Below the pieces are notes generated by a model, which ran no database searches, was not told the origin of the DNA, and was given only the letters and a program-made list of their open reading frames with translations. 64,000 nt of DNA from positions 224,001-288,000 of the forward strand of contig OY968764.1 in the NCBI GenBank assembly GCA_963695335.1, in the 5' to 3' direction. Below, in pieces: positions 1 through 33,919 of the stretch (positions are counted from its first letter, which is position 1; every line of letters starts with the position of its first letter). Both the position numbers and the translations under genes were made by a program. This DNA is from an uncultured bacterium (GTDB lineage: Bacteria; Babelota; Babeliae; Babelales; Vermiphilaceae).

Positions 1-136
1 TTGGACATACTTTTTTTAGTAATGAAAGAGAAAAATTTTCAACGCCAAGTTTAAGGGGCCCTACTCCGCTAAAGCTACGAAGGGCAAGTGCTAAACAATA
101 GGTATAAAAGAATTTTTTTTGAAATTGTATTTTCAT
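1..136 (-). CDS. 5' end of a gene running off the window (MKIQFQKKFFYTYCLALALRSFSGVGPLKLGVENF...), possibly DUF1343/NamZ-like
   Basis: ATG at 136 with upstream AAGGGAG RBS; frame open to the window edge; 'LKLGVEN' resembles DUF1343 N-termini (weak); carries a 33-nt repeat in frame. Confidence 0.55.
   Translation of the reverse strand, partial: MKIQFQKKFFYTYCLALALRSFSGVGPLKLGVENFSLSLLKKVCP
57..89 (-). repeat. 33-nt palindromic repeat (family B) in frame in a CDS
   Basis: Reverse complement ACTTGCCCTTCGTAGCTTTAGCGGAGTAGGGCC matches 33493-33525 at 32/33 nt. Confidence 0.9.
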
Positions 137-202
137 ATAATTCTCCCTTTTTTGTATATCCTCAAGATACGATTTTTCACAATATAAGAGCAATCCTTTC
201 CC

Positions 203-249
203 CCCGCTCGTCCTGAGTGCCCCCGCTAGGGAGGTGTATCGAAGGGTGC
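203..249 (+). repeat. REP-like palindromic repeat, family A long variant
   Basis: CCGCTCGTCCTGAG-[hairpin]-TGTATCGAAGGGTGC, similar to 46320, 46402 (rc) and 47443. Confidence 0.75.
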
Positions 250-318
250 AAAAAAACAATAACTCGTGATATTATTATCTCTATTACATTTTTAACTCGT
301 ATCACAGGAAAAAATATT

Positions 319-2679
319 ATGAAAAAAACAAGTTTACTTCTTCTTTGCACCTTACTCACCAACACCACCTTTGCGCACAACATATTTGATGATGTTCGCA
401 CCAAAAATAAAGAAGCACTCAAACAACGCTTACAAAATTGTGAAAATTGCGCAATCAAAGATGAACATGGCAATAATGCACTGCATATTGCCACACAAAA
501 CGGTGATCAAGAAATCATTGATATACTCACTACACCTGCCACATATGAAAATTGGTCAGATTGGCTGTATGCATGGCTCTATGCACCAGTACTACCCAAT
601 ATTGATGAACAAAACAATGACGGAAATTCGCCACTACTCTGTGCAACAGACAATGGTGATCTGACAACAGCTGAACAGTTGGTACAAAAAGGCGCTCGGA
701 TGGATATTGTTAATAAAAAAGGATTATCTCCAGCATTTCTTGCGGTACTCAAAGATGATCCACGTTTTATCCGTGTGTTTGTAGCTCACAAACTTAATTT
801 AGTTCAACATAAACGGAATGGTGATACTGTTTTTCATACAGCAGTAAAAGAAAAAAAACCAAATTCCATATATTATTGTGCACAGAAAACATCATTACAC
901 AATATCACCAACAGAGATCATAAAACACCAACATTTATTGCTATTGATGCTGAAGATGATGTACTGAAAATTTTTACCAAAGAACAGCTCAACGCTTCTT
1001 CAACATCAATAGGCATAAAACCAATCCATTACGCAACACAACAGAATAAATATAACGCTATACATTATTTACTGAATAATAACATCTCTGTGAATGAACC
1101 AGATGCGCAAGGTAATACTCCAATCTTCTATGCCAATAATGAAACAACGCTCAATTTTCTTTTGCAACGCAATGCAGATATACATAAACGTAACAACAGA
1201 GGAGAAGACATTCTTGCTATTGCTACCCACAACAACAATATTCCACTTATAACCGCTCTTATGCAAAAACATAATGTTGATATTGATGCACGAGACAACA
1301 AAGGTCAAACATCATTAATGCGCGCAACGATTGAACAAAATTATGAAATGATGGCAACTCTTATAAGCAATAAAGCAAATATTCGCATCACTGATAATAC
1401 ACGCGAAAATATTCTCCATAAAATAGCGCGTAATGGTGATCAAAAAGCTGCAAGAATAGTACTTGATCATGAAAAGGCATTGCTCACGGATTTAAATAAA
1501 AACGGTGATACACCAATTTTTGTTGCTATTCAAAATGGAAATATGACATGTACTGAATTTTTGATTGATGCAGGTTCACGTATCGACACAATCAATAATG
1601 AAGGGAATACAATTCTTCATGAATTGATTAAACAAAACAATAGCTGGTTACTCACTAAAGTACTGAGAAAAATAGATTACAACATTATTAATCACAAAAA
1701 TAAAAACAGTGAATTTCCACTCTCCCTTGCAGCACAACATGATAATATTGAAGCAATTAAAGCACTCATAGTGTGCAAAGCAAATACGTATACCATTGAT
1801 GCAGATGGGAACAATATTGCTCATATTGCTGCAAAACATAGTAGTCTTAAAACGCTGCAATATCTCCAATCTCGGCAAGATCTGTTGCGATCACACAACC
1901 ATTATGGAGAAACTCCTTTTATATGTGGAGCAAAACATGGTCAACTTGAAACAACACAACTATTACTCACGGAAGAGCATTTTATCAATGGCGATGTTAT
2001 CAACCTCATTAATGCTATGAAAGATCGCTATTTTGCTTGGGATACGCATTATCACGTCTACAGTTTTCTTACCCAACAACACAATAACCGTGTATCTGAA
2101 TGCCAAAACATTGTGATAATCGCACAATCAACACAGAATATTATAAAAGAAAATAATAACATATCAAAAATAATATCTGAAAAAACATTTCAACATCCAT
2201 ATAATCCAGAATCATTAGGTTCATATTATTCAGAAAATGATCTGTATAAAATGATGCAAACAGACCGCAATAAGATTAAAAATATGTATGTAGAACGCCA
2301 AAACAGAACAATCACAACAAAAAAAGCGTTAGAGCAAAGATTTCATGCAATTACTCTCGAAGAACAAGCACGCATTGACCAGCAAAAGCAAAGCGTAGAA
2401 GAGCTCAAAGAAAAAGCACGTATTGATGCTCTCAAAGAAGAACTCATCAAAGCTGCGGCACAAAAGGCACAAGAAAAACCTGAACATAGCCCATTTGAAC
2501 CTACAATTGCTCAGGACACTGATACACAAGCATCATGCTGCATCTGCTTTGAAGATGATCAACAATTATTAAGAAAAATTCCATGCAAAAATGCACACAG
2601 TGATCATATTTGTGGAGCATGCCTCAAAGCACCATCAATTACAACATGTCCAATTTGTAGAGGACCGATAACAAAATAA
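319..2679 (+). CDS. Signal-peptide ankyrin-repeat protein with coiled coil and C-terminal RING finger (candidate E3 ligase effector)
   Basis: N-terminus MKKTSLLLLCTLLTNTTFA after AGGA RBS; many GxT/SPLxxA ankyrin units; C-terminal CCIC..C..H..CGAC..CPIC. Confidence 0.88.
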   Translation: MKKTSLLLLCTLLTNTTFAHNIFDDVRTKNKEALKQRLQNCENCAIKDEHGNNALHIATQNGDQEIIDILTTPATYENWSDWLYAWLYAPVLPNIDEQNNDGNSPLLCATDNGDLTTAEQLVQKGARMDIVNKKGLSPAFLAVLKDDPRFIRVFVAHKLNLVQHKRNGDTVFHTAVKEKKPNSIYYCAQKTSLHNITNRDHKTPTFIAIDAEDDVLKIFTKEQLNASSTSIGIKPIHYATQQNKYNAIHYLLNNNISVNEPDAQGNTPIFYANNETTLNFLLQRNADIHKRNNRGEDILAIATHNNNIPLITALMQKHNVDIDARDNKGQTSLMRATIEQNYEMMATLISNKANIRITDNTRENILHKIARNGDQKAARIVLDHEKALLTDLNKNGDTPIFVAIQNGNMTCTEFLIDAGSRIDTINNEGNTILHELIKQNNSWLLTKVLRKIDYNIINHKNKNSEFPLSLAAQHDNIEAIKALIVCKANTYTIDADGNNIAHIAAKHSSLKTLQYLQSRQDLLRSHNHYGETPFICGAKHGQLETTQLLLTEEHFINGDVINLINAMKDRYFAWDTHYHVYSFLTQQHNNRVSECQNIVIIAQSTQNIIKENNNISKIISEKTFQHPYNPESLGSYYSENDLYKMMQTDRNKIKNMYVERQNRTITTKKALEQRFHAITLEEQARIDQQKQSVEELKEKARIDALKEELIKAAAQKAQEKPEHSPFEPTIAQDTDTQASCCICFEDDQQLLRKIPCKNAHSDHICGACLKAPSITTCPICRGPITK

Positions 2680-2693
2680 AATACAATATTTCC

Positions 2694-2725
2694 CCGTTCG
2701 TGCTGAGCCTGTCGAGGCATACAAA
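2694..2725 (+). repeat. REP-like palindromic repeat, family A
   Basis: CCGTTCGTGCTGAGCCTGTCGAGGCATACAAA, near-identical to 49126-49158. Confidence 0.85.
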
Positions 2726-2737
2726 CAATTTTAAAGT

Positions 2738-2772
2738 AAAAGAGCTGCAGAAAATTCCGCAGCTCTCTTTTT
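2738..2772. terminator. Bidirectional intrinsic terminator
   Basis: AGAGCTGC...GCAGCTCT stem with A/T tracts between convergent genes. Confidence 0.7.
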
Positions 2773-2799
2773 ATTATGAATGCAATTTTAATAGCTAAT

Positions 2800-3072
2800 C
2801 TAATTATAAATATCTCTTCGATGACCAACGGCAGAGATACAAATTTGTTTCTTTTGACTATCAACTGAAAAAATAATTCTATAATCACCAACTCTCAATC
2901 TATAAAGATTTGGATACCCCTTCAGTTTTTTAATATCACTATTTTCATGCAAAGATACTAAAACATCTATCTGCTTTATAATAGATTTTTGGGTAGACAA
3001 AGGTAGTTTTTCGAAACTCTTATGCGCAGATTTAAGCCATACAACAATAAAATTTTCAAAATTACTAGCCAT
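2800..3072 (-). CDS. RelE/ParE-family toxin
   Basis: KKLKG..LYRLRVGDYRIIF...VGHRRDIY signature. Confidence 0.9.
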   Translation of the reverse strand: MASNFENFIVVWLKSAHKSFEKLPLSTQKSIIKQIDVLVSLHENSDIKKLKGYPNLYRLRVGDYRIIFSVDSQKKQICISAVGHRRDIYN

Positions 3073-3293
3073 TACTTTTTCCTACTTATTTTCTTCTTAA
3101 CAGCCTCATGCGTAATATACTCATCTTCATCTTGTAATGCTTTATGAGCAATAGATCCAAAATAAAGATCTTCTATTTCTTCCAAAAGCTTTTCAAAAGT
3201 TAAAATATCAAGAATAACGCCTGTTTTTTTACCAGCTTTATCCACAATATATTGAGGAGTAATTTTAGACAAAAAAGCTTTATTTTTTAACAT
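3072..3293 (-). CDS. Cognate RelB-like antitoxin
   Basis: 73 aa; overlaps toxin start (TAATG); 'YIVDKAGKKTGVIL..FEKLLEEIED' typical of this antitoxin class. Confidence 0.75.
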   Translation of the reverse strand: MLKNKAFLSKITPQYIVDKAGKKTGVILDILTFEKLLEEIEDLYFGSIAHKALQDEDEYITHEAVKKKISRKK

Positions 3294-3307
3294 ATATCCC
3301 TCTATTG

Positions 3308-3344
3308 AAAAAAAGAGTTACAGAAATTCTGTAACTCTTTTTTT
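3308..3344. terminator. Intrinsic terminator of hppA
   Basis: Perfect inverted repeat AAAAAAAGAGTTACAGAA/TTCTGTAACTCTTTTTTT. Confidence 0.8.
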
Positions 3345-3357
3345 ATTTACAATCAAT

Positions 3358-5328
3358 TTATCCAACTAATACCAGCAGCAATGAAACAATAGACATCAAC
3401 TTAATTAAAATATTAAGCGCTGGTCCAGATGTATCCTTGAAAGGGTCGCCCACCGTGTCACCAATAACAGCTGACATGTGTGCAACAGATCCTTTGCCAC
3501 CCATGTGACCCGCTTCAATATATTTCTTAGCATTATCCCATGCACCACCAGCATTTGCCATCAACAGTGCAAGTAAAACACCTACAACGGTTGAACCAAC
3601 AAGTACACCACCAAGAACATGAATACCAAGTGTATATTTAACAACAACTGGAACAGAAATTGTTAACACACCAGGCAACACCATTTCTTTTAATGATGCT
3701 TTGGTACTGATCGCAACACAACGTTCATAATCAGGTTGTGCTGTACCCGCCATAATGCCAGGAATTTCTTTAAACTGACGACGAACTTCCATCACCATTT
3801 TCATTGCAGCATCACCAACAGAACGCATAGTAAGGGCTGAAACAACAAATGGAACTGTTCCTCCAATAAAAATACCGATCAAAATATATGGATCTAAAAC
3901 ATTAAGCATTTCAATATTTGCTTGTTGCGCATATGCAGAAAGTATTGCAAGCGCAGTAAGCAATGCTGAACCAATTGCAAAACCTTTACCAATTGCCGCA
4001 GTGGTGTTACCTAATGCATCAAGTTTATCAGTAATTTTTCTGACTTCTGGTCCAAAACCTGCCATTTCAGCAATACCACCAGCATTATCTGCAATAGGAC
4101 CATATGCATCAACAGTCATAGTAATACCCACCGTTGCAAGCATAGAAACTGCTGCAATAGAAATACCGTATAATCCACCGTAATAATGCGCTGCTAAAAC
4201 AATAAGTCCTAAAATAATAACCGGAGCAGCCGTTGATTCCATACCAACAGAAAGACCATAGATAATATTAGTTGCTGCACCAGAACGTGAAGTTTCAGCA
4301 ATGTTAATGACTGGTTTGCCACTTGTATAATATTCAGCAACTGCACCAATCACAACACCAGACAAACAACCAAGTGCAATGGGGATAAATAGTTCCATTG
4401 CAACACCATGGACCGTTTGATACCAATATGTTCCACCAAGAAATGCTACAATCGCCACATAGGTTGCATTACGTAACATAGCTGCAGGACTGCTCTGTAA
4501 AACTAAATTGAAAAGTAATCCTACAACAGAACTGATTAAACCAATTCCTGCAAGTACTAATGGGAACAACACATATTGAGGTGTCATTTGTGAACCAATT
4601 GCCAAAATTGCTGTTGAAACAATTGCTCCAACATATGATTCATAAATATCAGCGCCCATACCTGCTGTATCACCAACACAATCACCAACGTTGTCAGCAA
4701 TTACCGCTGGGTTACGAGGATCATCTTCTGGAATACCTGATTCCACTTTACCCACCAGATCAGCTCCAACATCTGCTGATTTTGTGAAAATACCCCCACC
4801 AACACGTGCAAAGAATGCAACTAAACTTGCACCAAGGCTAAAACATGTTAATAAGGTAACAAATTCAGGATGATCGCCAAATAAATAAAAAATTTTGACA
4901 AGCGCAAGTAAACCAAAACTTGCAACAGCAAAACCCATTACACCACCACCATAAAATGCAACCATAAACGCAGCAGATTCACCACCTTCACGTGCTGCAC
5001 TTGTTGTGCGTACATTTGCAGATGTCGCTGCAATCATTCCAACAAAACCAATTAACATAGAGATAAATGCGCCAGAAACAAATATAAGAGCCGCTAACCA
5101 ACTCTTAAATATTACTCCTAAAATAATTGCAACAACAGCAACCACCATTGCAATTACTCTATATTCTTCACGTAAAAACGTCATTGCACCTGCATGAATT
5201 GCAGCTGCAATCTGCTCGGCTTTGTGATTATTAACCGATAATCGGTTAATCGAACAAAATAAAATTGCTACGACCAGCAGGCCGAGCAATGCTATCATGC
5301 CCAAAACTATTAAATGCATCAAAATCAT
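3358..5328 (-). CDS. hppA: Membrane-integral pyrophosphatase, K+-dependent, probably Na+-translocating
   Basis: [54 protein letters not shown] motifs. Confidence 0.96.
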
Positions 5329-5486
5329 ATTCCTCCCTCAATAAAAATATACACTTTTTTAATACGCATATGATTGTACGATCAAATGGCCTTTCTGTAA
5401 ATACAACAACTGTAAAAAAAAATAACTACTCAACAAAAAAACCCTATTTTTGCAAACAAGGGTTTTTTCTATTTCAAGTATATCAA

Positions 5487-6353
5487 TTATAATTTGGAGG
5501 GTTTCACTCTTTTCAAATAAGCATCCCAGCCGGCTTTTTTATAACGTTGTGCTTCTACAAGCGGATCTTTGGCTTGCAAAATACCTCTGCCAACAATAAT
5601 AATATCACTACCAAGTTCATTGATAACTTTATCTGGAGTTAAATATTGTTGCCCAAATGCATCACCACCTTCAGCCATTTGCACACCAGGAGTAAAATGA
5701 AGCAATCCAGGATTATCAGATAATTTTTCGCGACAAATAACACCAATAACATTATTTGAATGTTGCAACGCTAATTTGACTGTGTGTGTTGTATAATCAC
5801 CTTGCGCAAGCGTGTTGGCGCTACTCATTTGTGCAAGTAAAAGAAATGCTGCATCTTTTGTTTTTTCTGTTGATTTAAGTGCTTGCAATGTACCATCACC
5901 TGCTATGCTGTGTACGGTAACCATATCAGCCCAGTCTGCAATGCGGAATATTCCACCGGTGTATTGTTTTAAAGCAATCGTTCCGATATCAGCAAATTTA
6001 CGATCTTCCCAAATTAAAAAATTATGTTTCTTCGCAAGAGCACACAATTGTGCCGGAAAATCTTTATCATAATCATCAATTGCATCACAATGTACTTTTA
6101 AAACAGATATTTCTGGCCCAACCAAATCTGCCAACTCAAAAAGCTTATTCTTTTGTGTAACATCTGCGGAAAAGATAAGATTAGTTTTTTTTGCATCCAT
6201 AATAGTGAGCAAACGTTGTGCAATCGGATTAGTGCAATAAGTTGCACGTTGCTTATATGTTAATACTTTATCTTGGAAATCCATTGCGATTAGACGAGAA
6301 CAATTACTCAAACAAACGATAAGTGTTATTAAAACAAAACATTTTTTAAACAT
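5487..6353 (-). CDS. pyrF: Orotidine-5'-phosphate decarboxylase, URA3/UMPS-like, with signal-peptide-like N-terminus
   Basis: EDRKFADIG catalytic motif; TYKQRA..NPIAQRLL.IM..KKTNL..SADV; GQQYLTP; IIVGRG. Confidence 0.93.
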   Translation of the reverse strand: MFKKCFVLITLIVCLSNCSRLIAMDFQDKVLTYKQRATYCTNPIAQRLLTIMDAKKTNLIFSADVTQKNKLFELADLVGPEISVLKVHCDAIDDYDKDFPAQLCALAKKHNFLIWEDRKFADIGTIALKQYTGGIFRIADWADMVTVHSIAGDGTLQALKSTEKTKDAAFLLLAQMSSANTLAQGDYTTHTVKLALQHSNNVIGVICREKLSDNPGLLHFTPGVQMAEGGDAFGQQYLTPDKVINELGSDIIIVGRGILQAKDPLVEAQRYKKAGWDAYLKRVKPSKL

Positions 6354-6375
6354 GTATATAGTTTTTTCTTTTTAA

Positions 6376-8001: not shown

Positions 8002-8104
8002 AACTACTCCCTTTTTTAAAAAATAATATGTTGAAGCTTGAAAAGACGCCCAAGACATATTAGATTTGTTGAGAAATTTATACAACCATAAAAAAGGAAG
8101 CTGT

Positions 8105-8983: not shown

Positions 8984-8992
8984 ATTTTGCTC

Positions 8993-9029
8993 AAAAAAAA
9001 TGTCCTATCTATGTAGATAGGCATTTTTT
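8993..9029. terminator. Bidirectional terminator
   Basis: CCTATCTA-TG-TAGATAGG stem flanked by A/T tracts between convergent genes. Confidence 0.7.
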
Positions 9030-9032
9030 ATT

Positions 9033-24046: not shown

Positions 24047-24081
24047 TACAATCAACTGACAAACTCAAAAAAGATACATCT

Positions 24082-24113: not shown

Positions 24114-24134
24114 AACCCAAAAAAAGGAAATTAT

Positions 24135-24425: not shown

Positions 24426-24466
24426 AAAAATAGATCATCAAACAAACTAAAAAAGAAGGATTTTTT

Positions 24467-24946
24467 ATGACACATTTCAAGAAAATGCTTGCAATTGCAG
24501 CACTATTCACCATCGGGCTTGCACATGCAAAACAGATGGTGAAAAAAACAACTACAGCACCTATAACAACACCTGTAACTCAACCAATACAACCGATTAA
24601 ACCACAAACAAAGCCATTACCACAACCCAAGCAACAACCATCATCCTCCTCCGCCAAGGCTTCGGCGGACAGGGCAAAAACATTTAAGCAACTTTATAAT
24701 GAAGTAAAAAATGCAAAAAATGCCTGGGACTATAAAACTCAACTATTAAGCGAAACCTTTGTTAATAATCTTTTTAATGATGCTCAAACAGCAAAAATAA
24801 GTAATATGCAATTCGATTTTTTAATATTATTCGCACAAGATTGTCATGCACAATTTACCGGCCCTAAAAAGGATATTGATATATTAAAAGGTCTTCAAAA
24901 TCAACGTGTAAACATTTCGTATCTCTTTGCAGACAGGGAGCTATAA
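24467..24946 (+). CDS. Secreted hypothetical protein (paralog family) with in-frame repeat
   Basis: Signal ..GLAHA|KQ; repeat 24644-24673 encodes SSSAKASADR. Confidence 0.7.
   Translation: MTHFKKMLAIAALFTIGLAHAKQMVKKTTTAPITTPVTQPIQPIKPQTKPLPQPKQQPSSSSAKASADRAKTFKQLYNEVKNAKNAWDYKTQLLSETFVNNLFNDAQTAKISNMQFDFLILFAQDCHAQFTGPKKDIDILKGLQNQRVNISYLFADREL
24644..24673 (+). repeat. 30-nt palindromic repeat (family B) in frame
   Basis: TCCTCCTCCGCCAAGGCTTCGGCGGACAGG: GC-rich hairpin inside an AT-rich gene. Confidence 0.8.
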
Positions 24947-25947
24947 TGAAATCTTTTAAAAGTACAGCTATAATCTTAACGTTATGTATCATTGGAAATA
25001 TAAATACAAAACAAGTAGGAAAAAAAGGAATTACTACCTCGCCCGTAACAACACCCTCCTCCGCTCCATCTTCCGCACAAGGCTCCAGAGGACACGGTAA
25101 AGCTTCCTCTTACGCTAAAGCTACAGAGGACAGGTCGGCGAACAGGCCACAACCTCAAAAACAACTACAACTTCAAAAGGGAACATTCAGAGAATTCCTT
25201 AATGAAATTAGAAATATGAAAACAAATGATATATTTACACCAGACAGATCGCAATTTACTGATAAAGTAGTATGGCTTATAGCTAGCGCAAGAATCTCTC
25301 CTCTTGAACGTTTAGAAACTGATAGTCTATTGCACGCGTTAACGCTATTACATGTCATTGGCACAATAATTCCTATAGAAGATGTACTCGATCCTAACAA
25401 AGAAAAAGAGCATGAAAAAAAAATCAAGTCTTTAACGAATGATTTGAACAAAAGAGTAGAAGCGTTGGTTGAAAAACAAAATCCAACAATACAAGAATTT
25501 CCAAAAGAAAAACCTAAAACAGAAGTAACTAAAAAAGAAGAAAAAAAAGAATTACCGAAATTTGAACAACCACGCGTGACGGAAAAAAACAAACAAATGA
25601 TGCAAGGGCGTCTAGAAATAGAAACTGCATTAAAATTAAACATGTTCATTGACAAGAGCGATCTTGATAATAATGACATGAAAAAAATCTGTACCGAAAT
25701 TGATTTTCTATTAAGAAAAGCCAATCTGGACTATGAACAATTAGGCTCTACAAATGCAGAAAAAATTGCCAATGCTAACATGGCAATCGATATGGTCAAA
25801 AAAGAAATCATAAATAAACTCTCAGAGCTTAAACCAAAAACAATGCTAAAATTAGCCGATTATATACTACTTACGAAACAAAACGATAAAACTATGATAG
25901 AAATTGGAAAAGAACTCAACATGCGTGCGACTGCACAATCTTTATAA
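24946..25947 (+). CDS. Secreted hypothetical protein (paralog family) with nested in-frame repeats
   Basis: Signal ..GNINT|KQ; overlaps upstream stop. Confidence 0.7.
   Translation: MKSFKSTAIILTLCIIGNINTKQVGKKGITTSPVTTPSSAPSSAQGSRGHGKASSYAKATEDRSANRPQPQKQLQLQKGTFREFLNEIRNMKTNDIFTPDRSQFTDKVVWLIASARISPLERLETDSLLHALTLLHVIGTIIPIEDVLDPNKEKEHEKKIKSLTNDLNKRVEALVEKQNPTIQEFPKEKPKTEVTKKEEKKELPKFEQPRVTEKNKQMMQGRLEIETALKLNMFIDKSDLDNNDMKKICTEIDFLLRKANLDYEQLGSTNAEKIANANMAIDMVKKEIINKLSELKPKTMLKLADYILLTKQNDKTMIEIGKELNMRATAQSL
25054..25146 (+). repeat. Three nested family B repeats (30+33+30 nt) in frame
   Basis: Removing 25066-25098 and 25105-25134 leaves CCCTCCTCCGCTAAAGCTTCGGCGAACAGG, 26/30 identical to 24644-24673. 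Confidence 0.75.
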
Positions 25948-25964
25948 TATAATAACAGTGAATT

Positions 25965-26029
25965 ATCGGGTAGGAGGGGACGATTAGTCCCTGACCTCCC
26001 ACACCACCGCACGTACCGTTCGGTATACG
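25965..26029 (-). mobile_element. Group IIC intron 3' remnant (partial domain V plus domain VI)
   Basis: CGTATACCGAACGGTACGTGCGGTGGTGTGGGAGG...CCTACCCGAT, near-identical to 27940-28005; 5' arm of DV (GAACCGC) missing. Confidence 0.85.
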
Positions 26030-26170
26030 TATGAACTTTACAGATGATCTTACATAAGTAAGCATACCACAACCCTTTATTCCCGTAAAAAGCCCCTAAT
26101 TTGATCACGACAAACAGAATAAATAATACCTTCTGAGGCAAATATCCTTGTTGTATCAACATTTTTCATA

Positions 26171-27483
26171 CAGGGCGATCGCATTTAAAACTCTGATTTT
26201 AACGGAAATTTCGAAATTCACTTGATACACTATTTGTATTGGAGGCTGGAGGATAAAGACGGAACAAAATAAAAAAAGTATGATGCTCAAAAAAAACGTC
26301 CCACTTGAAAAAGGAGATTTTTAATGAGCATCATACTGCATGAAATATGGCATAACTACGACCATTTGGCAAATCTTATAGCATGCTTAGAAGAAGTCAC
26401 TGATCCAAGAATTGATCGATGTAAAAAACATGAACTTGTCGTAATACTTTTGATTGCAATTTTAGCTATATTTTCCGGTGCACAAAACTGGGTACATGTG
26501 GTGAGATTTGCACATGATCATGAAGAATGGTTACATGATAAAATATGGCTTCCAAATGGTATTCCATCACATGATACCTTCCATCGTGTCTTTTTACTTT
26601 TAAATCCAAAAGAATTAAAAGATTGGTTAGTGCTTTGGCTCGAAGTTGCACTGCATGATAATAGCGACCATATCGCAATTGATGGCAAAGTCATAGAAGC
26701 TTGGTCTTCAAACAATCCGTTTACGTTAATAAATGCATTCAGTCCTTCATCAAAAATAGTTCTTGAGCAAGCACGTGTTCCAGATGGCAATAATGAATTA
26801 ACCGGTATGAATCGCGTATTAGATACGCTAAATTTAAAGGGAAAAGTAATCACTATTGATGCGATGGGTACAAGAAAAGCATTTGTAAAAAAAATTATCG
26901 CACGAGGCGGTGATTATATCTTGCCAGTTAAACTGAATAATCGTTTACTTTACGAAGATATTGACCTTTTTTTACGTACACTCGCACAAGGTGAACATGA
27001 AGAAATTGCATATAAATATCATGAAACTATCGATTATAAGCATGGTAGAAAAGAAATCCGAAGGTGCTATTCAACCGAATATATTGATTGGATCTATCAA
27101 AAGAAAGAATGGACCAATCTAAAATCAATAACTCTTATAGAATCAAAGGTTGAAGGTAAAAGAAGAAATGCAAATAATATACGTCTTTTTATCAGCAGCC
27201 TACCAGCAGATCCCGAACGTATCTTGGGTTATATTCGTGCCCATTGGAGCATCGAAAACCATCTTCACAGAAGTCTTGATGTCAATTTTAACGATGATCA
27301 AAGAAGCTTAAGAAAAGGCCATGGGGCTCAAAATTTTAATTTTCTCAGTGCCTTCGTTAATTCACTTTTAACCAGAAAAACCTCAGATTTCAGCTTGGGA
27401 AATAAATTACGAAGAGGAAATAGTGACCCTAATTTTATTTTGGATACCCTTATAAATCCAGGGTTTTAAATGCGATCGCCCTG
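26171..27483 (+). mobile_element. ISAs1-family insertion sequence, 1313 bp
   Basis: Perfect 21-bp terminal IRs CAGGGCGATCGCATTTAAAAC; 9-bp direct repeat TTTTTCATA on both sides. Confidence 0.95.
26324..27469 (+). CDS. ISAs1 DDE transposase
   Basis: DPR..CKKH.L, GIPSHDTF.RVF, IAIDGK, TIDAMG, HGRKEIR, RAHWSIENHLH..LDV. Confidence 0.95.
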   Translation: MSIILHEIWHNYDHLANLIACLEEVTDPRIDRCKKHELVVILLIAILAIFSGAQNWVHVVRFAHDHEEWLHDKIWLPNGIPSHDTFHRVFLLLNPKELKDWLVLWLEVALHDNSDHIAIDGKVIEAWSSNNPFTLINAFSPSSKIVLEQARVPDGNNELTGMNRVLDTLNLKGKVITIDAMGTRKAFVKKIIARGGDYILPVKLNNRLLYEDIDLFLRTLAQGEHEEIAYKYHETIDYKHGRKEIRRCYSTEYIDWIYQKKEWTNLKSITLIESKVEGKRRNANNIRLFISSLPADPERILGYIRAHWSIENHLHRSLDVNFNDDQRSLRKGHGAQNFNFLSAFVNSLLTRKTSDFSLGNKLRRGNSDPNFILDTLINPGF

Positions 27484-27576
27484 TTTTTCATAGCTATACT
27501 ATTGACAAATTGAAACTCAAAAAGATAGACTTACAAGTGATAGATATCATATTAATCTCAAAAAAGGAATGTTTCC

Positions 27577-27906
27577 ATGAAAAACACAAAAAACTTACTT
27601 GTTACAGGCTTAGCCCTGGCAATAACATTATGTTCATCAATACAAGTATTTGCACAGCTTACCGGGCCTCAACGAATGCTTGTTAAAGAGGAGATGGATA
27701 ATCAAAAATTACTCTATGAAGATCTTGTTGAGCTAAGGAACATAGCAATACGAAATGGTAATAAAGCCAAAGAAAACTACAATCATAATAAGGCAATGGC
27801 ACATTATACAAAAAAACAAAAACTAGAAGAACTTTATGGAACTACAAAGACATATTCTGACTCCGAGGTATCTAATAAAATAGAACGCATAAAAAGTGAG
27901 CAATAA
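27577..27906 (+). CDS. Small secreted hypothetical protein
   Basis: Signal ..IQVFA|Q; AAGGA RBS; upstream TTGACA..TAGACT promoter-like. Confidence 0.65.
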   Translation: MKNTKNLLVTGLALAITLCSSIQVFAQLTGPQRMLVKEEMDNQKLLYEDLVELRNIAIRNGNKAKENYNHNKAMAHYTKKQKLEELYGTTKTYSDSEVSNKIERIKSEQ

Positions 27907-27939
27907 CTTTAATTCATTCCACTAACATTAAAGTCAACA

Positions 27940-28485
27940 ATCGAGTAGGAGGGGACGATTAGTCCCCCGACCTCCCACACCACCGCACGTACCGTTCGGT
28001 ATACGGCGGTTCATATAAAACTACAAAGTTCTTCATATCGTGTTAAAAGACTTACAAGCCCTTGCTCTCGCCAATAGGCGAGGTCCAGGGCTTTGTGCGT
28101 TTGTGGCGTTAAGGTTTTTTTTTCTTTTCAGGTACTATGACATCTGGTGACTTCTGATGATTTAGCCACTTTTTTTTTCAAAGTGATTTGCCAATATAAT
28201 TAGCGTATCATCAGATCTCCTCGGGTAAGTTCGCTGTCTTTCATTCCATTTACCTGTCTCATTTACCTCCGATAGCCTTTGGCAATATGGATTTTGTTTT
28301 CTGTGGCAAACTCATCAAACTATCGTGGCCTCCTATGAGCTTCGTGTTCCTCAGGCCGGAATTTTGCCGCCAACTTCCTTTAGATTCCGCCTTACGGCGG
28401 ACACCCTTGTCTTAGGCTAAAAGTTACTATTGCCTTCACTTTTCAGGATTTTCACCTTATAGACTTGCGCACATGCCGAGCGCAC
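27940..28485 (-). mobile_element. Internally deleted (RT-less) group IIC intron, 546 nt
   Basis: 5' GTGCGCTCGGCATG; DV GAACCGCCGTATACCGAACGGTACGTGCGGTGG; 3' CCTACTCGAT; inserted just after a terminator; keeps maturase tail ..HKALDLAYWREQGLVSLLTRYEEL..*. Confidence 0.9.
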
Positions 28486-28490
28486 CACAA

Positions 28491-28523
28491 GAAAAAAGTC
28501 CTGGTTTTTCCAGGACCTTTTTT
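28491..28523 (-). terminator. Intrinsic terminator (intron target site)
   Basis: GTCCTGG-AAAAA-CCAGGAC plus T tract. Confidence 0.85.
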
Positions 28524-28544
28524 AATTCAAAATAATAGTGTTGG

Positions 28545-30155
28545 TTAGTAAGACACGCCCATTTTGCCCCAAATAACCCATCTGCGTGGAACTGCATTAT
28601 TGTTTTTTGAGAACGTGTATGATGCACCAACATTACCAAATAATGGATATTCTCTGTCGTATGCATGGAAACCAATAGTTGCATATAATGTGTTAGCAAA
28701 TAGTGCAGGAGTTGCTGCTGAGTTAAGGTTCAAATCTGATTCTTGAATTAAACTCATTTCATAATTTGCTACAGATACTGGGATTATAATACCATCGCAT
28801 GCAATGCTTAAATCATCTGGAATATTTGCAACAATCTGTTCATCATATTTATTACCATCAATTGTACGGATTGGATTTGTTGTACCATTGCCTAGATAAT
28901 GTTTAAGAGCTGGGCCAACTTGCCATGGGCAATGGAGCTTAACATTTTCAGCTCTTTTAGCGAGGAAGTTATAACCACCTTCAATTTGCAACTTTTTCCA
29001 GGTGAACTGAAATGCAGTGTTAATATCTGTTGTTAATCCTGGAGTAACTTTTACTTCTTGTGTAAACACGTTAATACCAGGAGTTGAATTATTCATCGCA
29101 AATGGTGGATTACTTACAATCAAATCAGCCGCTTCTTGTGCTTCTTCCTGATTGATATACACCGGCAAATAACGGCTCCATGGTCTATTTTTTAAATCAA
29201 AAGAACGTCTTTGTTTATTTTCAAACAACCACTCAAAATGGTTTGCTAATTCATAGCGAATATCCATGTCACCAGAAGCACTCTCCCAAAGATCTATTCC
29301 CAAAGAGCTACCAAACATAATCCCAAAGTTTTTACCACGACCAACAATTGGTTGGAAAACATACTCAGCTTCATTTTTGTTACCTGTTGGGATGACAATA
29401 CCAAAATATGATTCCATATGAGTTGGTGAATGATCAAGCCATTCGTAACCAACCTTTGCTTCTATATCCCCCAAGCCCGTTTTTTTCATAGAACAATCAC
29501 TGATTTTCCCATACTTCCAATCTGATTGCTGGAATGCTTGCGTCATATTTGCTACAGCAAATTCAGTTGCGGCCTCATTCACACCACCACCATCATTTTC
29601 AATTTTTTCAAAAAAGTTCATATCATTATTAACACGCATAATTGGTGCAGAAAAACTAAACCATACACCTTTTTTATATGTATGGCTTTTCCAAACACTT
29701 TGACGAATATGAAGACCAAGACCAATAACTGATTGTTGTGGACGAACGCTAATTGTACTTTCAAATGTATTATTCACCGTGAAAACGTTAAAGTCTTGTG
29801 CAAGAAGATCTTTTTTAACATTAAAGCCTGGTTGTTGAGGAGGACCATCATTTGCTGCGACTAATGATGTATTTGCATCTGGAAAAAAATACTGCGCTAA
29901 ATCTTCTTGATCAGATGTTTGACTTCCAAAAAGAACTGCCTGGAACGCACCACCCCAACCATTTTCACGCGTTAAATTGCGATCATTACGAAATCCTGAA
30001 ACCATTTCTGGTTGTTGTGATACAAATAGTGGATGGATTGTCAGCGTAGTTTTACTTGTTGCTTCTAATTCAGCCGCTTCATTTCTACAATCAGCTAATA
30101 ATGGTATTCCCACTGTTAGCGATAAAATTGCCATTATTCGTGTATTCTTCATCAT
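28545..30155 (-). CDS. Putative outer-membrane beta-barrel protein
   Basis: Signal peptide; alternating beta-strand pattern; C-terminal WGKMGVSY beta-signal-like; AAGGAG RBS. Confidence 0.65.
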   Translation of the reverse strand: MMKNTRIMAILSLTVGIPLLADCRNEAAELEATSKTTLTIHPLFVSQQPEMVSGFRNDRNLTRENGWGGAFQAVLFGSQTSDQEDLAQYFFPDANTSLVAANDGPPQQPGFNVKKDLLAQDFNVFTVNNTFESTISVRPQQSVIGLGLHIRQSVWKSHTYKKGVWFSFSAPIMRVNNDMNFFEKIENDGGGVNEAATEFAVANMTQAFQQSDWKYGKISDCSMKKTGLGDIEAKVGYEWLDHSPTHMESYFGIVIPTGNKNEAEYVFQPIVGRGKNFGIMFGSSLGIDLWESASGDMDIRYELANHFEWLFENKQRRSFDLKNRPWSRYLPVYINQEEAQEAADLIVSNPPFAMNNSTPGINVFTQEVKVTPGLTTDINTAFQFTWKKLQIEGGYNFLAKRAENVKLHCPWQVGPALKHYLGNGTTNPIRTIDGNKYDEQIVANIPDDLSIACDGIIIPVSVANYEMSLIQESDLNLNSAATPALFANTLYATIGFHAYDREYPLFGNVGASYTFSKNNNAVPRRWVIWGKMGVSY

Positions 30156-30320
30156 TCTCCTTTTTTTATTTGATTCATTATCTTCATTTTTCTACCATGA
30201 ATAGACAAATTCATCAAATTTTACTCTAAAAAAATATCCTGAAGATAAACTCTTTCATTAAAAGATGATACAATCAAAAACAAGAGTTTATCTCAAACAA
30301 ATTAATTAGTTCCCTCTATG

Positions 30321-30460
30321 CGCTCACTTCCCCCATCTTCAATTCCTTCCGACGGGGACCCCGATTCAGCCCCATTTCCATTTCATTCCAATGGGGACCC
30401 CAATTGGAGTAAAACGCAAATTGGGGATAAAACGTAGTAAAATGTATCGAAGGATATGCA
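30321..30460 (+). repeat. Composite repeat cluster: family C units within a family A-like shell
   Basis: CGCTCAC...two CCCCAT..GGGGACCCC units...TGTATCGAAGGA. Confidence 0.6.
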
Positions 30461-30513
30461 AAAATTTATAAAAAACTGTATCCTAAAATAAAATATATTT
30501 TAAGGATTCCATT

Positions 30514-31776
30514 ATGCTTATTCCTCGCGTCAAAGGCACACAAGATTTTATCGATTGCACACTCTACAACTTTATTATTGATGCAATCAAAAAACATCTC
30601 ACAACATACCATTTCACTGAGATTCAAACACCAATCCTCGAATCAATCGACCTTTTTCAACGCTCGCTTGGGCAGCACACTGATGTGGTTTCTAAAGAAA
30701 TGTTTGTCATCGAATCCCGCAATGAAGATACTAAAGAGCGCATCTGCTTACGCCCAGAAGGCACCGCTTCTATTGTACGCGCATTCAATGAACATCGCAT
30801 TGAAACATTACCATGGAAAGTATTTTCACATGGCCCAATGTTCAGATACGAACGCCCTCAAAAAGGAAGATTCCGCCAATTCCACCAAGTAACTATGGAA
30901 GTAATTGGATCAGGTTCAATTTCTCAAGATGTGCAATTTATTGCAATGCTCGATCGCTTTTTTCATGAAATATTAAACATCAATAGCTACGCACTTGTAC
31001 TGAACTTTTTGGGATGTTCGCAAGATCGCGAACAATATTTAAACATTTTGCGACAATTTATGAATAAACCTGAAGTTGCACAAAATATCTGTGATAATTG
31101 CCGCGAAAGAAAAGAACACAATATCATGCGCATTTTTGATTGCAAAAATCCGCAATGCCAAGAATTATACAAAAATGCTCCGCACATTGCAGACAACCTT
31201 TGCCCGATTTGTGCACAAGAATGGCATGATTTGCAAAAACAGTTAAATCTTTTATCCGTTTCGCATGCATACAAACCAACATTGGTCCGTGGACTTGATT
31301 ATTACACCAAAACAGTATTTGAATTTGTAAGTGAAAATCTTGGCGCACAAAACACATTCTGTGGTGGTGGAAGATACAATCAACTCATCAAAGAACTTGG
31401 CGACAATCAAGATCAACCTGCCGTTGGTGCTGCATTTGGCATGGAACGGCTTATGCTGCTTCTTGAGCCATTCAAAAATCAATTGGCAATACCGCAACCT
31501 CCTGCACTTCACATGATTATTCCTATGACTCCTGCACAACACACATTGGCATTACTCCTTGCTGATGAACTGCAAGCGCAGAATATTTGCACTGATATAC
31601 TTTTTGAAGGCTCTATAAAAAATATGATGAAAAAAGCAAACAAACTTGGCGCTGCATATGCACTCATTTTGGGTGAAACGGAACAAGAAAATCGCACGGT
31701 TACACTCAAAAATATGGTTACAGGAACTGAAGAAGTTGTTGCTCAAATTGATGTTGTTGCAAGATTGAAAAAGTAA
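30514..31776 (+). CDS. hisS: Histidine--tRNA ligase
   Basis: RVKGTQD, LRPEGTA, FRYERPQKGRFRQFHQ, LVRGLDYY, GGGRY. Confidence 0.97.
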   Translation: MLIPRVKGTQDFIDCTLYNFIIDAIKKHLTTYHFTEIQTPILESIDLFQRSLGQHTDVVSKEMFVIESRNEDTKERICLRPEGTASIVRAFNEHRIETLPWKVFSHGPMFRYERPQKGRFRQFHQVTMEVIGSGSISQDVQFIAMLDRFFHEILNINSYALVLNFLGCSQDREQYLNILRQFMNKPEVAQNICDNCRERKEHNIMRIFDCKNPQCQELYKNAPHIADNLCPICAQEWHDLQKQLNLLSVSHAYKPTLVRGLDYYTKTVFEFVSENLGAQNTFCGGGRYNQLIKELGDNQDQPAVGAAFGMERLMLLLEPFKNQLAIPQPPALHMIIPMTPAQHTLALLLADELQAQNICTDILFEGSIKNMMKKANKLGAAYALILGETEQENRTVTLKNMVTGTEEVVAQIDVVARLKK

Positions 31777-31961
31777 TGGAATATAAAGGTTATTTTGGAG
31801 AAATAACTTACGATGATGAAGCAAAAATATTTCATGGTGAAGTAATTGGCCTTAAAGACATTATCACATTTCAAGGAAGAAGTACCAACGAGCTCGAGAA
31901 AGCGTTTCAAGATTCTATTAATAATTATCTTGCATGGTGCAAAGAGTTAAAAAAAATATAA
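31776..31961 (+). pseudogene. hicB: Truncated orphan HicB-family antitoxin
   Basis: MEYKGY....YD....IFHGEV.GL.D.ITFQG..ELEKAF..S...YL; stops before the DNA-binding domain, at a repeat cluster; no hicA adjacent. Confidence 0.7.
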
Positions 31962-32124
31962 CGTTCGTGTTGATGCTTCGTCATACTCACCAGTAAACGC
32001 TACGCTCAATACTTCACGAGATTGTTCCAATCCCGTTCGTGTTGATACTTCGTCAAGCTCAGTAGTAAACGCCCTACTTGCGTGCCCTACGAAGTTTTAA
32101 CGAAGTAGGGTCGAAACATACGAA
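31962..32124 (+). repeat. Nested REP-like cluster
   Basis: 32033-32124 is family A unit CCGTTCGTGTTGA|ACTTG|TCGAAACATACGAA interrupted by two 30-nt inserts. Confidence 0.8.
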
Positions 32125-32147
32125 TTCATTAAAAAAAAGAGTATTAC

Positions 32148-32372
32148 ATGCTAACACAAATACAACCGGGCCAAATTTGGCGCCATTATAAAAATAAAGA
32201 TTATCGTATTATTGCAGTATCCTGCTATTCAGAAGATTTATCATGGTACGTTGTGTATGAAGCGTTATACGATAATCCTGTCAGTAAAATCTGGCATCGC
32301 CCTCTTGATATGTTTTTAGAGAATGTAGAAATTGATAGTAAAATTGTGCCACGCTTTAAGTGTATTGAGTAA
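32148..32372 (+). CDS. DUF1653-family protein
   Basis: PGQIWRHYK..Y, HSE-like YSED, VVYEALY, W.RPL.MF.E.V, PRF. Confidence 0.85.
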   Translation: MLTQIQPGQIWRHYKNKDYRIIAVSCYSEDLSWYVVYEALYDNPVSKIWHRPLDMFLENVEIDSKIVPRFKCIE

Positions 32373-32405
32373 AAAAAAGAGGCTCCGTGCGGAGCCTTAT
32401 TTTTT
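32372..32405. terminator. Bidirectional terminator
   Basis: AGGCTCCG-TG-CGGAGCCT with flanking tracts. Confidence 0.7.
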
Positions 32406-32426
32406 AGTTAGTCAACTTGTTCCATC

Positions 32427-32744
32427 TCATTTTTCATTTCTTCCTCCAACATTCAACCCAATTTTTTTCAATTCTTGCTCAATCAATCCAGGAAGCAAAC
32501 TATAGTTCGGCTTTGCTGGTAAATATTTTTCTCTATTTGCCTGTTCAAGGGTCATAAACCCCATCGCGTTCATTTCCATTTCTATCTCTCTTTTCTTCCA
32601 GATTTCTTCAAGAGTTAATGGATGTGAAATCTTTGCAGGAGGTTTATTGGCAACACAACGCGATTTAGTTTCATCTTGCATCCCAAAATTCATTGCACTG
32701 AAAAACAACGCACACCATACACTCAACAAGATATACCGTTTCAT
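32427..32744 (-). CDS. Small secreted hypothetical protein
   Basis: Signal ..MNFG|MQD; GAGGTG RBS. Confidence 0.6.
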   Translation of the reverse strand: MKRYILLSVWCALFFSAMNFGMQDETKSRCVANKPPAKISHPLTLEEIWKKREIEMEMNAMGFMTLEQANREKYLPAKPNYSLLPGLIEQELKKIGLNVGGRNEK

Positions 32745-32827
32745 ATAAATTCACCTCTCATGTTTGTTATAACCAATTGTAGTTTAACTTATAGTATCAA
32801 ATAATATATGACTACAAAAGGATACTC

Positions 32828-33919
32828 ATGAAAAAAGTATTAACCATTGGCAGTGGTATTCAAGATGTTTTCACCAAATATGACAGTGTAGAAACATTAG
32901 ATTTTCATACCAAAGAAGAAGATCTTGCATATGTATGTTTACGCGCAGGAAGAAAAATAGAACTGCAAGATATTGAATATTATTGTGGTGGCGGCGCAAC
33001 CAATAGCGCCGTATCATTTGCACGTAATGGTTTTGAAGTGCAAAGCTTTTTTAAAATTGGCAATGATAAAAGTGGTGATTTTATTTTAGATAGTTTAAAA
33101 AAAGAAAATGTTTCGACTATACATGTTATTCGCACTGATGAAAAACCAACAGGCCAATCATTTATCATTCCAGGTCCGCATGGCAACAGCGCGGTTTTGG
33201 TATATCGTGGCGCAAATATTACGTTACAACAAAAAGAACTTCCTGAAAATGCAATTAAACAAGCAAATCAACTCTATATCACTTCGCTCAGTGGCCCTAC
33301 TGCACCGTTATTAATTCCCATCACACAGATGGCAAAAAAATATAATGTTCCTGTTGCAGCAAACCCTGGCACGAGTCAATTGCGTGCAGGCGCAGTATAT
33401 TTAAAAGAAGCGCTGTGCAATATAAATATTCTTATTTTAAATAGTTATGAAGCTGAATTGCTCATGACGTCATTAAACATTGAATCACCTTTACTTGCCC
33501 TTCGTAGCTTTAGCGAAGTAGGGCCGGAATTATTACAAAAACCACTTGGATCAATGAGTGCTTGTTTCACATTACAACAATTTTTTACTACCATGCACGC
33601 ATGCGGACCAGACATAATTGTTGTCACTAATGGATCGGAAGGAGTGTATGCGAGTGATAGAAACAGTATCTACTTCCATCCTAGTATAAAAATTAACATT
33701 GTCAGTAGCACTGGTGCTGGTGATGCTTTTGGATCTTCTTTTGTAGCACAACTAAATCATAATAAATCAATTGAAGATGCATTGCGCATGGGTATTATTA
33801 ACAGCTCTTCTGTTATCAAACATCTTGGTACACAAAATGGATTATTGGCAGGTAATGAATTAGAAAAAATAGCAGCTCATCTTGATAAAAAATTGCTGCA
33901 AAAATATCCACTCAAATAA
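32828..33919 (+). CDS. PfkB/ribokinase-family kinase
   Basis: GGGATNSAV, IGND..G, LNSYEA, STGAGDAFGS. Confidence 0.9.
   Translation: MKKVLTIGSGIQDVFTKYDSVETLDFHTKEEDLAYVCLRAGRKIELQDIEYYCGGGATNSAVSFARNGFEVQSFFKIGNDKSGDFILDSLKKENVSTIHVIRTDEKPTGQSFIIPGPHGNSAVLVYRGANITLQQKELPENAIKQANQLYITSLSGPTAPLLIPITQMAKKYNVPVAANPGTSQLRAGAVYLKEALCNINILILNSYEAELLMTSLNIESPLLALRSFSEVGPELLQKPLGSMSACFTLQQFFTTMHACGPDIIVVTNGSEGVYASDRNSIYFHPSIKINIVSSTGAGDAFGSSFVAQLNHNKSIEDALRMGIINSSSVIKHLGTQNGLLAGNELEKIAAHLDKKLLQKYPLK
33493..33525 (+). repeat. 33-nt family B repeat in frame in the PfkB kinase (LALRSFSEVGP)
   Basis: 32/33 identity with 57-89 (rc). Confidence 0.9.

What the first reader, a model, noticed from the sequence alone, without database searches (positions are those of the whole stretch)
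57..33525. 30-33 nt palindromic element inserted in frame into unrelated proteins
Seen: the same 33-mer (32/33 identical) lies in the sense strand of the gene at 1-136 and inside the PfkB kinase, encoding LALRSFS(G/E)VGP in both. Related 30-mers in the opposite orientation give SSSAKASADR (24644) and SSYAKATEDR (25105). The delimited units are multiples of 3 and stop-free in the frames used. Known: Rickettsia palindromic elements add peptides to proteins but are generally longer. Inference: a very small non-autonomous mobile element that creates 10-11 aa insertions in proteins.
Basis: partly seen in the sequence, partly recalled or inferred. Interest (0 to 1): 0.78.

Follow-up and report, generated by a model that had tools for sequence, protein, structure and literature searches.

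The report
30-base hairpin inserted inside proteins
A 30-base DNA hairpin occurs about a hundred times in this small bacterial genome, half of the time in frame inside predicted genes where it adds or swaps in ten amino acids, and it is likely spread by a tiny DNA-cutting enzyme whose gene sits beside the same hairpin at tRNA genes.

Summary
The repeat is real. It is a 30-nt unit, not 33: a 4-nt CNTG tag plus a 26-nt covarying hairpin. The genome (G000, probably Babeliales/TM6) has 97 copies, against 0 in two Markov controls; 47 lie in predicted genes. Two congeners have 86 and 26 copies.

Against orthologues, the usual gain is +9 to +11 aa (21 of 29 well-anchored sites). In PfkB the element replaces 10 codons, with net 0 or -1 aa. 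In NamZ the net gain is +7. 65 of 96 coding copies use one register (xSAKAxxDR), which points to selection on the peptide.

The hairpin lies just upstream of an 80-aa single-domain GIY-YIG gene in 33 of 76 loci (3 of 76 downstream), often behind a tRNA. That nuclease is the likely mobiliser, by analogy with Ssn ssDNA nucleases; this is untested. The element fails the SRM, CGTC/GTAG, RAYT and MITE tests, so it is a new variant of RPE/REP-type coding palindromes. My seven literature searches found no description. This scan noted the same family in this genome before.

The parts
59..88 (-). 30-nt element (CNTG-tag strand is minus), read on its tag strand as LALRSFSGVG in the N-terminal region of NamZ; net +7 aa versus the G005 orthologue
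1..136 (-). 5' part of host gene: exo-beta-N-acetylmuramidase NamZ (422 aa, runs out of the window; G000 222868-224136)
24644..24673 (+). 30-nt element in the common register (codon boundary, SSSAKASADR) in the Pro/Gln-rich linker of a 159-aa protein with no Pfam match; no orthologue found in G005
25054..25146 (+). 93-nt nest: a host copy split by a degenerate 33-nt copy and by the 30-nt copy at 25105-25134; 31 in-frame codons in a 333-aa protein with no Pfam match
25105..25134 (+). 30-nt element (SSYAKATEDR) inserted after GCT in the inner stem of an older copy
33494..33523 (+). 30-nt element read on its tag strand as LALRSFSEVG, PfkB residues 223-232; replaces 10 native codons in a variable loop
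32828..33919 (+). host gene: PfkB-family carbohydrate kinase, 363 aa, intact
24467..24946 (+). host ORF (159 aa, signal-peptide-like N-terminus)
24946..25947 (+). host ORF (333 aa)

Best explanation
The repeat is a 30-base unit (a 4-base CNTG tag plus a 26-base hairpin) found at 97 sites in this genome, about half in frame inside predicted genes, and it is likely a non-autonomous mobile element cut from single-stranded DNA and re-inserted through an 80-residue GIY-YIG nuclease encoded next to the same hairpin at tRNA genes.

Shown:
- the anatomy, with covarying stems
- empty orthologous sites
- nesting in itself and in a larger REP, with no target duplication
- the cassette tRNA 3' end / hairpin / spacer / inverted hairpin / GIY-YIG gene
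- the register bias

Inferred:
(1) The tag strand folds as ssDNA, with G.A mismatches flanking the internal loop.
(2) The nuclease binds the hairpin and cuts 5' of the tag, as SsnA does for NTS.
(3) The fragment is joined into new sites by host repair, sometimes with loss of target DNA. This would explain the 30-for-30 swaps and the 31-nt variants.
(4) Purifying selection keeps only frame-preserving events in loops and low-complexity linkers, mostly in the register with the fewest bulky hydrophobic residues.
For: Copy number and structure: 97 copies against 0 in two controls. In 181 distinct copies from three genomes, stem pairs covary: pair 1-26 is Watson-Crick in 0.88 vs 0.47 shuffled, and pair 12-15 in 0.97 vs 0.50. 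G.T wobbles favour the tag strand 55:19, and the loop is flanked by G.A in 154 and A.G in 168 of 181.

Insertion: net gain is +9 to +11 aa at 21 of 29 anchored sites. A congener has an independent clean 60-nt double insertion in the same PfkB loop. 8 of 9 self-nested GCT^ insertions leave the host copy intact with exactly 30 nt added.

Selection: coding copies are depleted, 47 of 97 vs 86.7% coding (p 5e-19). One register holds 31/47, 22/33 and 12/16 coding copies in three genomes, 65 of 96 pooled vs about 20 expected among stop-free registers. Orientation bias is 38:9 in genes but 13:13 between co-directional genes. All 6 REP-nested coding copies net 30 nt, while 12 of 16 intergenic ones add 31. 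Flanks are richer in disorder-promoting residues, 0.68 vs 0.61. The PfkB peptide sits in a low-confidence coil between two helices.

Nuclease link: the element lies within 400 bp upstream of the 80-aa GIY-YIG gene in 33 of 76 loci, vs 3 of 76 downstream and 3 of 76 in far flanks; a tRNA lies upstream in 41 of 76. Across 41 related genomes: both present 19, element only 3, nuclease only 5, neither 14. Copies abut tRNA 3' ends 3, 5 and 1 times vs about 0.01 expected. Y6, Y18 and E64 are conserved in both G000 proteins, matching the positions the SsnA paper mutates (Y6, Y17, E64; PMC11893778).
Against: No activity was tested; the nuclease link is association only, and kin genomes are not independent.

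SsnA is shown to cut, not to move, its repeat (PMC11893778), and a GIY-YIG nuclease has no known strand-joining step.

Nested insertions land inside hairpins (GW^A, G^GC), not next to tags, which a cut-at-the-tag model does not by itself explain.

43 of 76 nuclease loci show no match upstream. Solo copies have no such gene within 500-600 bp (0 of 46 viral, 0 of 82 metagenomic matches). Cassette copies often have different tags and stems (GCTG/ACTG/AGTG) from solo copies.

The lagging-template bias expected of ssDNA mobility is weak: 106:77 pooled (p 0.04), and 56:47 in intergenic copies (not significant).

8 of 29 anchored sites are not +9 to +11. With relatives only 76-84% identical, later deletions cannot be told from deletion at insertion. 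Genes were called with my own hexamer model; no RNA or protein evidence exists.
Confidence: 0.55

Rival explanations
1. The element is mobile but is spread by another enzyme: the YhbQ-like GIY-YIG that goes with the larger REP family, an IS200/RAYT-type HUH transposase in trans, or host repair and template switching at ssDNA hairpins. The 80-aa nuclease only uses the hairpin as its own recognition or integration site at tRNAs.
For: G000 also has a 95-aa YhbQ-like GIY-YIG flanked by the larger REP, with an element-bearing REP 19 bp downstream. It has three Y1 transposase genes with identical scores. Insertion without target duplication and into hairpins resembles IS200/IS605 and RAYT behaviour (recalled; analogy also drawn in PMC11893778). 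Three of 41 genomes have the element but no strong match to the 80-aa nuclease.
Against: The two Y1 copies I printed have their own IS200-type end hairpins and no element at their ends. The element, not the larger REP, lies directly upstream of the 80-aa gene, including in loci titled Alphaproteobacteria, Nitrospirales and Opitutae.
Confidence: 0.27
2. No dedicated mobilisation: copies spread passively by illegitimate recombination or gene conversion between existing hairpin repeats and incoming DNA. This would overwrite target DNA (as in PfkB) as often as it inserts.
For: Exact 10-for-10 codon swaps occur at PfkB (vs G002) and at G000 369893 (vs both G005 and G008). Composite element-in-REP subfamilies recur as units.
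Against: Solo coding copies have unrelated flanks with no homology to a donor. The hairpin end is precise, and the net gain peaks at exactly +10 aa.
Confidence: 0.12
3. The repeat is kept for a host function, as an RNA signal or as a selected peptide tag, rather than as selfish DNA.
For: Strong covariation, a favoured peptide register, and some copies shared between congeners (e.g. G000 866717 and 1143177 with G005).
Against: Most sites are species-specific. Five other registers occur. Wobble bias favours the strand that is antisense in most genes and tRNAs. Rfam gave only tRNA at the cassette loci. Copies interrupt each other.
Confidence: 0.05
4. Chance similarity or assembly artefact.
For: None found.
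Against: 97 copies vs 0 in controls. Pattern present in 22 of 41 related genomes with 0 reversed-pattern hits. A separate run contig matches the PfkB copy exactly.
Confidence: 0.01

Closest known systems
Rickettsia palindromic elements (RPE; Ogata et al. 2000 and 2002, seen only as summarised in passages of PMC10969869, and PMC3733652)
   Same: Dispersed palindromic repeats, roughly half inserted in frame in unrelated genes of a small-genome bacterium, adding a peptide; single and multiple insertions per gene.
   Different: RPE-1 is about 150 bp and RPE-4/-6 are CGTC-tagged. This unit is 30 nt with a CNTG tag and a 6-bp/3x3-loop/3-bp stem, occurs in several phyla, nests in itself, sometimes replaces rather than adds codons, and has a candidate mobiliser.
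Ssn nucleases with NTS/SRM hairpins (Chenal et al. 2025, PMC11893778; read: abstract, introduction, results, discussion, part of methods; supplements not read)
   Same: A roughly 30-nt oriented hairpin with an unpaired 5' tag, in many copies, tied to a single-domain GIY-YIG gene with the same catalytic Tyr/Tyr/Glu positions.
   Different: 0 of 97 copies match the SRM pattern. The nuclease is 80-81 aa and forms a separate branch (100/100) from two NTS-adjacent SsnA-like proteins. The hairpins lie only upstream of the gene, behind a tRNA, not on both sides. NTS is in genes only 2% of the time in N. meningitidis, against 48% here. The paper's main text does not contain the word tRNA.
GTAG- and CGTC-tagged REPs, REPINs and RAYT (Di Nocera et al. 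2013, PMC3733652; read: parts 1-2 of 8, passages, and searches of supplements; figures with the consensus sequences not held)
   Same: 20-40 bp tagged hairpins, 20-100 or more copies, inverted dimers, some intragenic copies adding amino acids, some inserted in other palindromes.
   Different: The tag is CNTG, not GTAG or CGTC (0 of 97). No RAYT is flanked by it. Its peptides and inner stems were not found in the supplements held.
Bacterial MITEs
   Same: Non-autonomous, non-coding, dispersed, can fuse in frame.
   Different: Far smaller than 70-300 bp (size range from PMC3733652), no terminal inverted repeats around an internal part, and no target-site duplication in nested insertions.

Membership tests
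Rickettsia palindromic elements | palindromic repeat inserted in frame in many unrelated ORFs | tested here: met
   47 of 97 copies in predicted CDS; empty orthologous sites
Rickettsia palindromic elements | about 150 bp (RPE-1) or CGTC-tagged (RPE-4, RPE-6) | tested here: not met
   30 nt; 0 of 97 with CGTC tag
Rickettsia palindromic elements | sequence homology to an RPE family | not tested
   no RPE sequences were fetched
GTAG/CGTC REPs | 20-40 bp hairpin with an unpaired terminal tetranucleotide | tested here: met
   26-nt covarying hairpin plus 4-nt tag
GTAG/CGTC REPs | tag is GTAG or CGTC | tested here: not met
   tag strand starts CCTG 31, CTTG 20, CGTG 15 of 97; 0 GTAG or CGTC
REP/RAYT (REPIN) systems | HUH Y1 transposase gene flanked by the repeat | tested here: not met
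   3 Y1 genes in G000; 2 printed, with their own end hairpins and no element at the ends; nearest copy about 300 bp away inside a neighbouring gene
Ssn / NTS-SRM | repeat matches the SRM pattern | tested here: not met
   0 of 97 copies; 0 SRM matches in G000 (pattern)
Ssn / NTS-SRM | repeat spatially tied to a small single-domain GIY-YIG gene | tested here: met
   33 of 76 loci upstream vs 3 of 76 far flanks
Ssn / NTS-SRM | gene flanked by repeats on both sides | tested here: not met
   3 of 76 loci have a downstream copy
Ssn / NTS-SRM | nuclease in the cd10448 (Ssn) clade | tested here: not met
   58 proteins of the 80-aa group form one side of a 100/100 branch apart from 2 NTS-adjacent SsnA-like stand-ins. 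Caveats: only 2 stand-ins, 80 columns, CDD not available, group gathered by similarity to A1. Best PDB sequence matches are Slx1 and UPF0213
Ssn / NTS-SRM | strand-specific ssDNA cleavage 5' of the hairpin | not testable with these tools
   needs purified protein
MITEs | terminal inverted repeats and target-site duplication | tested here: not met
   8 of 9 self-nested GCT^ insertions add exactly 30 nt with the host intact and no duplication

The most novel reading that the evidence does not exclude
An 80-residue GIY-YIG nuclease that homes to tRNA and tmRNA 3' ends is a new, minimal kind of mobilising enzyme. It cuts a 30-base ssDNA hairpin next to its tag and writes it into the genome, either as an insertion or as an equal-length overwrite of 10 codons. 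That would make it the smallest protein-coding mobile unit with an identified engine, active across several phyla, and a model for the missing mobiliser of RPE- and CGTC-type repeats.
Probability: 0.3. Interest if true: 0.85.

Novelty: new variant of a known kind. Interest (0 to 1): 0.6.

Why it matters
How Rickettsia-type coding palindromes and CGTC REPs move is open; Di Nocera et al. state that CGTC REPs lack a dedicated transposase. Here a defined 30-nt unit, empty orthologous sites and an 81-aa candidate enzyme come together, so the question can be tested with oligos and one small protein.

The element also acts as a natural insertion scan of a proteome: 96 coding copies in three genomes mark tolerant loops and show which 10-residue peptide proteins accept. 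If the nuclease is sequence-specific on ssDNA, it extends the Ssn tool concept to a second GIY-YIG group.

For annotators, SAKA-type, LRQG-type and LALRSF-type peptides in such genomes are DNA-repeat products, not protein motifs.

Tried and rejected
- Strain-level presence/absence and expression: the run search listed no RNA holder and only four small-share DNA runs. Laid contigs covered the stretch patchily and showed no joints, so there is no evidence either way.
- A 1-nt target-site duplication was considered and rejected. The variable first base pairs with base 26 of the hairpin (C-G 46, T-A 39 of 97).
- RAYT or IS200 as the partner was rejected as above.
- Rfam on the three GIY-YIG loci gave only tRNA above threshold. 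NCBIfam gave no family for the three nucleases.
- Transcription-coupled insertion as the cause of the orientation bias is not supported by 13:13 in intergenic copies.
- Replication-strand bias was weak.
- Standard DNA folding energies give only weak or alternative folds for single copies (-0.6 to -8 kcal/mol). The structure rests on covariation, not on energy.
- Coding calls in viral and metagenomic loci rest on open-frame length alone and are unreliable at high GC, so they were not used for the register statistics.
- Rows dropped: of 96 coding copies, 67 lacked an orthologue, had more than 24 aa between anchors, or faced an orthologue that also carried a copy, and were left out of the net-gain count. 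The middle of the output was cut from view; I cite only what was shown.
- Literature: seven searches found no paper describing this element or cassette. Subscription papers, the figures of PMC3733652 and the supplements of PMC11893778 were not seen and could bear on novelty.
Full report
OBSERVATION. The host genes are NamZ, a PfkB kinase and two adjacent proteins without a Pfam match. The window is G000:C1:224001-288000 of a 1.37-Mb, 35.7% GC single-contig genome. Record titles of the closest nuclease homologues that name a taxon are mostly Dependentiae/Babeliales, so the genome is probably of that group (inference). An iterated PWM finds 97 copies at score >=20, against 0 in each of two order-5 Markov genomes. 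A strict pattern hits 22 of 41 related genomes with no reversed-pattern hits. A looser pattern hits 5 of 5 genomes chosen from other phyla because they carry the nuclease. Exact-pattern scans hit 48 viral stretches and at least 120 metagenome stretches.

ANATOMY. Nested copies fix the ends. On one strand the unit reads 5' CNTG tag, 6-bp stem, GNA, 3-bp stem, 2-nt loop, 3-bp stem, GNA, 6-bp stem: 30 nt in all. In 181 distinct copies from G000, G005 and G008 the variable stem pairs covary. Pair 1-26 is Watson-Crick in 0.88 vs 0.47 shuffled, pair 4-23 in 0.85 vs 0.55, and pair 12-15 in 0.97 vs 0.50. G.T wobbles fall on the tag strand 55:19, and the internal loop is bounded by G.A and A.G in 154 and 168 copies. 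I infer that the tag strand folds as ssDNA; the stability of sheared G.A pairs in DNA is recalled, not tested. The window also holds an intergenic copy at 32081-32110, and the 25105 copy is the inner member of a 93-nt triple nest.

IS IT INSERTED? I compared G000 with G005 (median orthologue identity 84%) and G008 (76%). Of 96 coding copies, 29 had close anchors and an empty orthologue. The net gain was +10 aa in 10, +9 or +11 in 11, and other values in 8. In PfkB the ten element codons stand exactly where G002 has ten native codons, with net -1 vs G005. A second exact swap occurs at G000 369893 against both relatives. NamZ nets +7. G008 has an independent, clean 60-nt double copy in the same PfkB loop, and two relatives (G003, G016) lack much of the loop. 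The model places residues 223-232 in a low-confidence coil between two helices. Self-nested copies at GCT^ add exactly 30 nt without duplication in 8 of 9 cases. In a larger REP, all 6 coding copies net 30 nt (three by a -1/+1 compensation), whereas 12 of 16 intergenic ones add 31 nt. Eight of those 12 are one composite and are probably not independent, and the host REP consensus was read by eye.

WHY IN FRAME? Copies avoid genes (47 of 97 vs 86.7% coding). One register, with the non-tag strand as sense and the insertion at a codon boundary, holds 31/47, 22/33 and 12/16 coding copies in three genomes. Pooled, that is 65 of 96 where about 20 are expected from stop-free registers. An equally open register in the same orientation holds 5. 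The favoured peptide (xSAKAxxDR) has the fewest bulky hydrophobic residues of the six (1.1 per copy) and few arginines (0.45). Orientation is biased in genes (38:9) but not between co-directional genes (13:13). Flanking residues are more disorder-prone than the proteome, 0.68 vs 0.61. Selection after insertion is the simplest reading, although a codon-linked target preference is not excluded. The two LALRSF copies belong to a rare register (6 of 96).

CANDIDATE ENGINE. G000 has three small GIY-YIG genes. Two are 80-81 aa and 46% identical. The 895128 gene is preceded by a twice-repeated forward hairpin, spacer and inverted hairpin. The 205100 gene has a degenerate version of that leader directly behind tRNA-Arg. 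In 76 loci of this nuclease from genome contigs, the element lies within 400 bp upstream in 33, downstream in 3 and in far flanks in 3; a tRNA lies within 500 bp upstream in 41. The tRNA's terminal CCA forms part of the first stem. Copies abut tRNA 3' ends far above chance, and cassettes without the gene occur at tRNAs and tmRNA. Across 41 relatives, element and nuclease co-occur 19/3/5/14; kin are not independent, and some genomes are incomplete. Against this, 43 of 76 loci lack a match, and solo copies have no such gene nearby (0 of 46 and 0 of 82). The Y1 transposases have their own ends. The third GIY-YIG (95 aa) goes with a different, larger REP.

MECHANISM. Chenal et al. (PMC11893778) show that SsnA, a 94-aa single-domain GIY-YIG, binds a tagged hairpin only as ssDNA, on one strand, and cuts a few bases upstream. 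They note that NTS-ssnA-NTS resembles an IS, but they do not show mobility. By analogy I propose that the 80-aa nuclease cuts 5' of the CNTG tag. A slightly variable tag-side end (30 vs 31 nt, net +33) and a fixed hairpin-side end fit this. How the 3' end is freed and how the piece is joined is unknown; host repair with occasional target loss would explain the swaps. Steps from cleavage onward are inferred. A lagging-template bias is only weak (106:77). I put the mobile-element reading at about 0.9 and this nuclease as its engine at about 0.55.

RELATION TO KNOWN KINDS. It works like an RPE in genes and is built like a tagged REP/NTS. It fails the defining sequence tests: no GTAG or CGTC tag, 0 of 97 SRM matches, and a nuclease on a separate branch from two SsnA-like stand-ins. 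It has no flanked RAYT and no target duplication. Seven searches and supplement searches found no description; closed-access papers and figures were not seen. Earlier notes of this scan report the same 30-nt family in this genome and related GIY-YIG-linked palindromes in CPR genomes. I had the GIY-YIG/tRNA link before the look-up, and took the Ssn paper from it.

VERDICT. A real element and a new variant of protein-coding palindromic repeats, with a testable candidate nuclease. What this locus adds is the equal-length replacement in PfkB, the 31-nt intergenic versus 30-nt coding contrast, and the register statistics in three genomes. Interest 0.6.

Noticed in passing
window 197-250, 2693-2732, 46370-46460, 47440-47500, 49125-49164, about 63370-63430: A second, larger REP-like family (182 regex hits genome-wide, some copies counted twice). 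It flanks the 95-aa YhbQ-like GIY-YIG gene at G000 565521-565808 and is a frequent target of the 30-nt element, suggesting a second nuclease/hairpin pair in the same genome.
   Followed up: partly
window 46382-46468 and 47426-47512: 87-nt inverted arms (74% complementary) made of that REP family, one overlapping the start of the 353-aa ORF 46334-47395 and one just past its end; cassette-like.
   Followed up: no
window 25939-28005: ORF 26324-27469 (381 aa) lies between 32-nt inverted repeats (26170-26201, 27453-27484), IS-like. Direct repeats at 25939-26029 and 27914-28005 enclose it and resemble a group II intron 3' end (recalled, untested).
   Followed up: no
L563:450-720 (G000 about 445150-445420): Nuclease-less cassette at the tmRNA 3' end: degenerate hairpin, spacer, inverted hairpin and a further copy; part of it recurs at G000 454810.
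   Followed up: partly
G000 813684: This copy is flanked by a 10-bp direct repeat and nets +11 aa (IIP duplicated), unlike most copies; its gene holds three copies.
   Followed up: no
L214, L219, L228, L326, L376: In viral and metagenomic loci the element sits inside tracts of 7-bp tandem repeats, possibly another ssDNA-type repeat used as a target.
   Followed up: no
G006, G009, G014, G019, G021, G029, G035, G039: Copies of the 80-aa nuclease with internal stops are common, as expected of a selfish gene. The best match in G009, with 30 exact-pattern copies, carries a TGA.
   Followed up: no
G000 369218, 574578, 1166633: Three IS200-type Y1 transposase genes with identical scores; the two printed are identical and have their own end hairpins.
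   Followed up: partly
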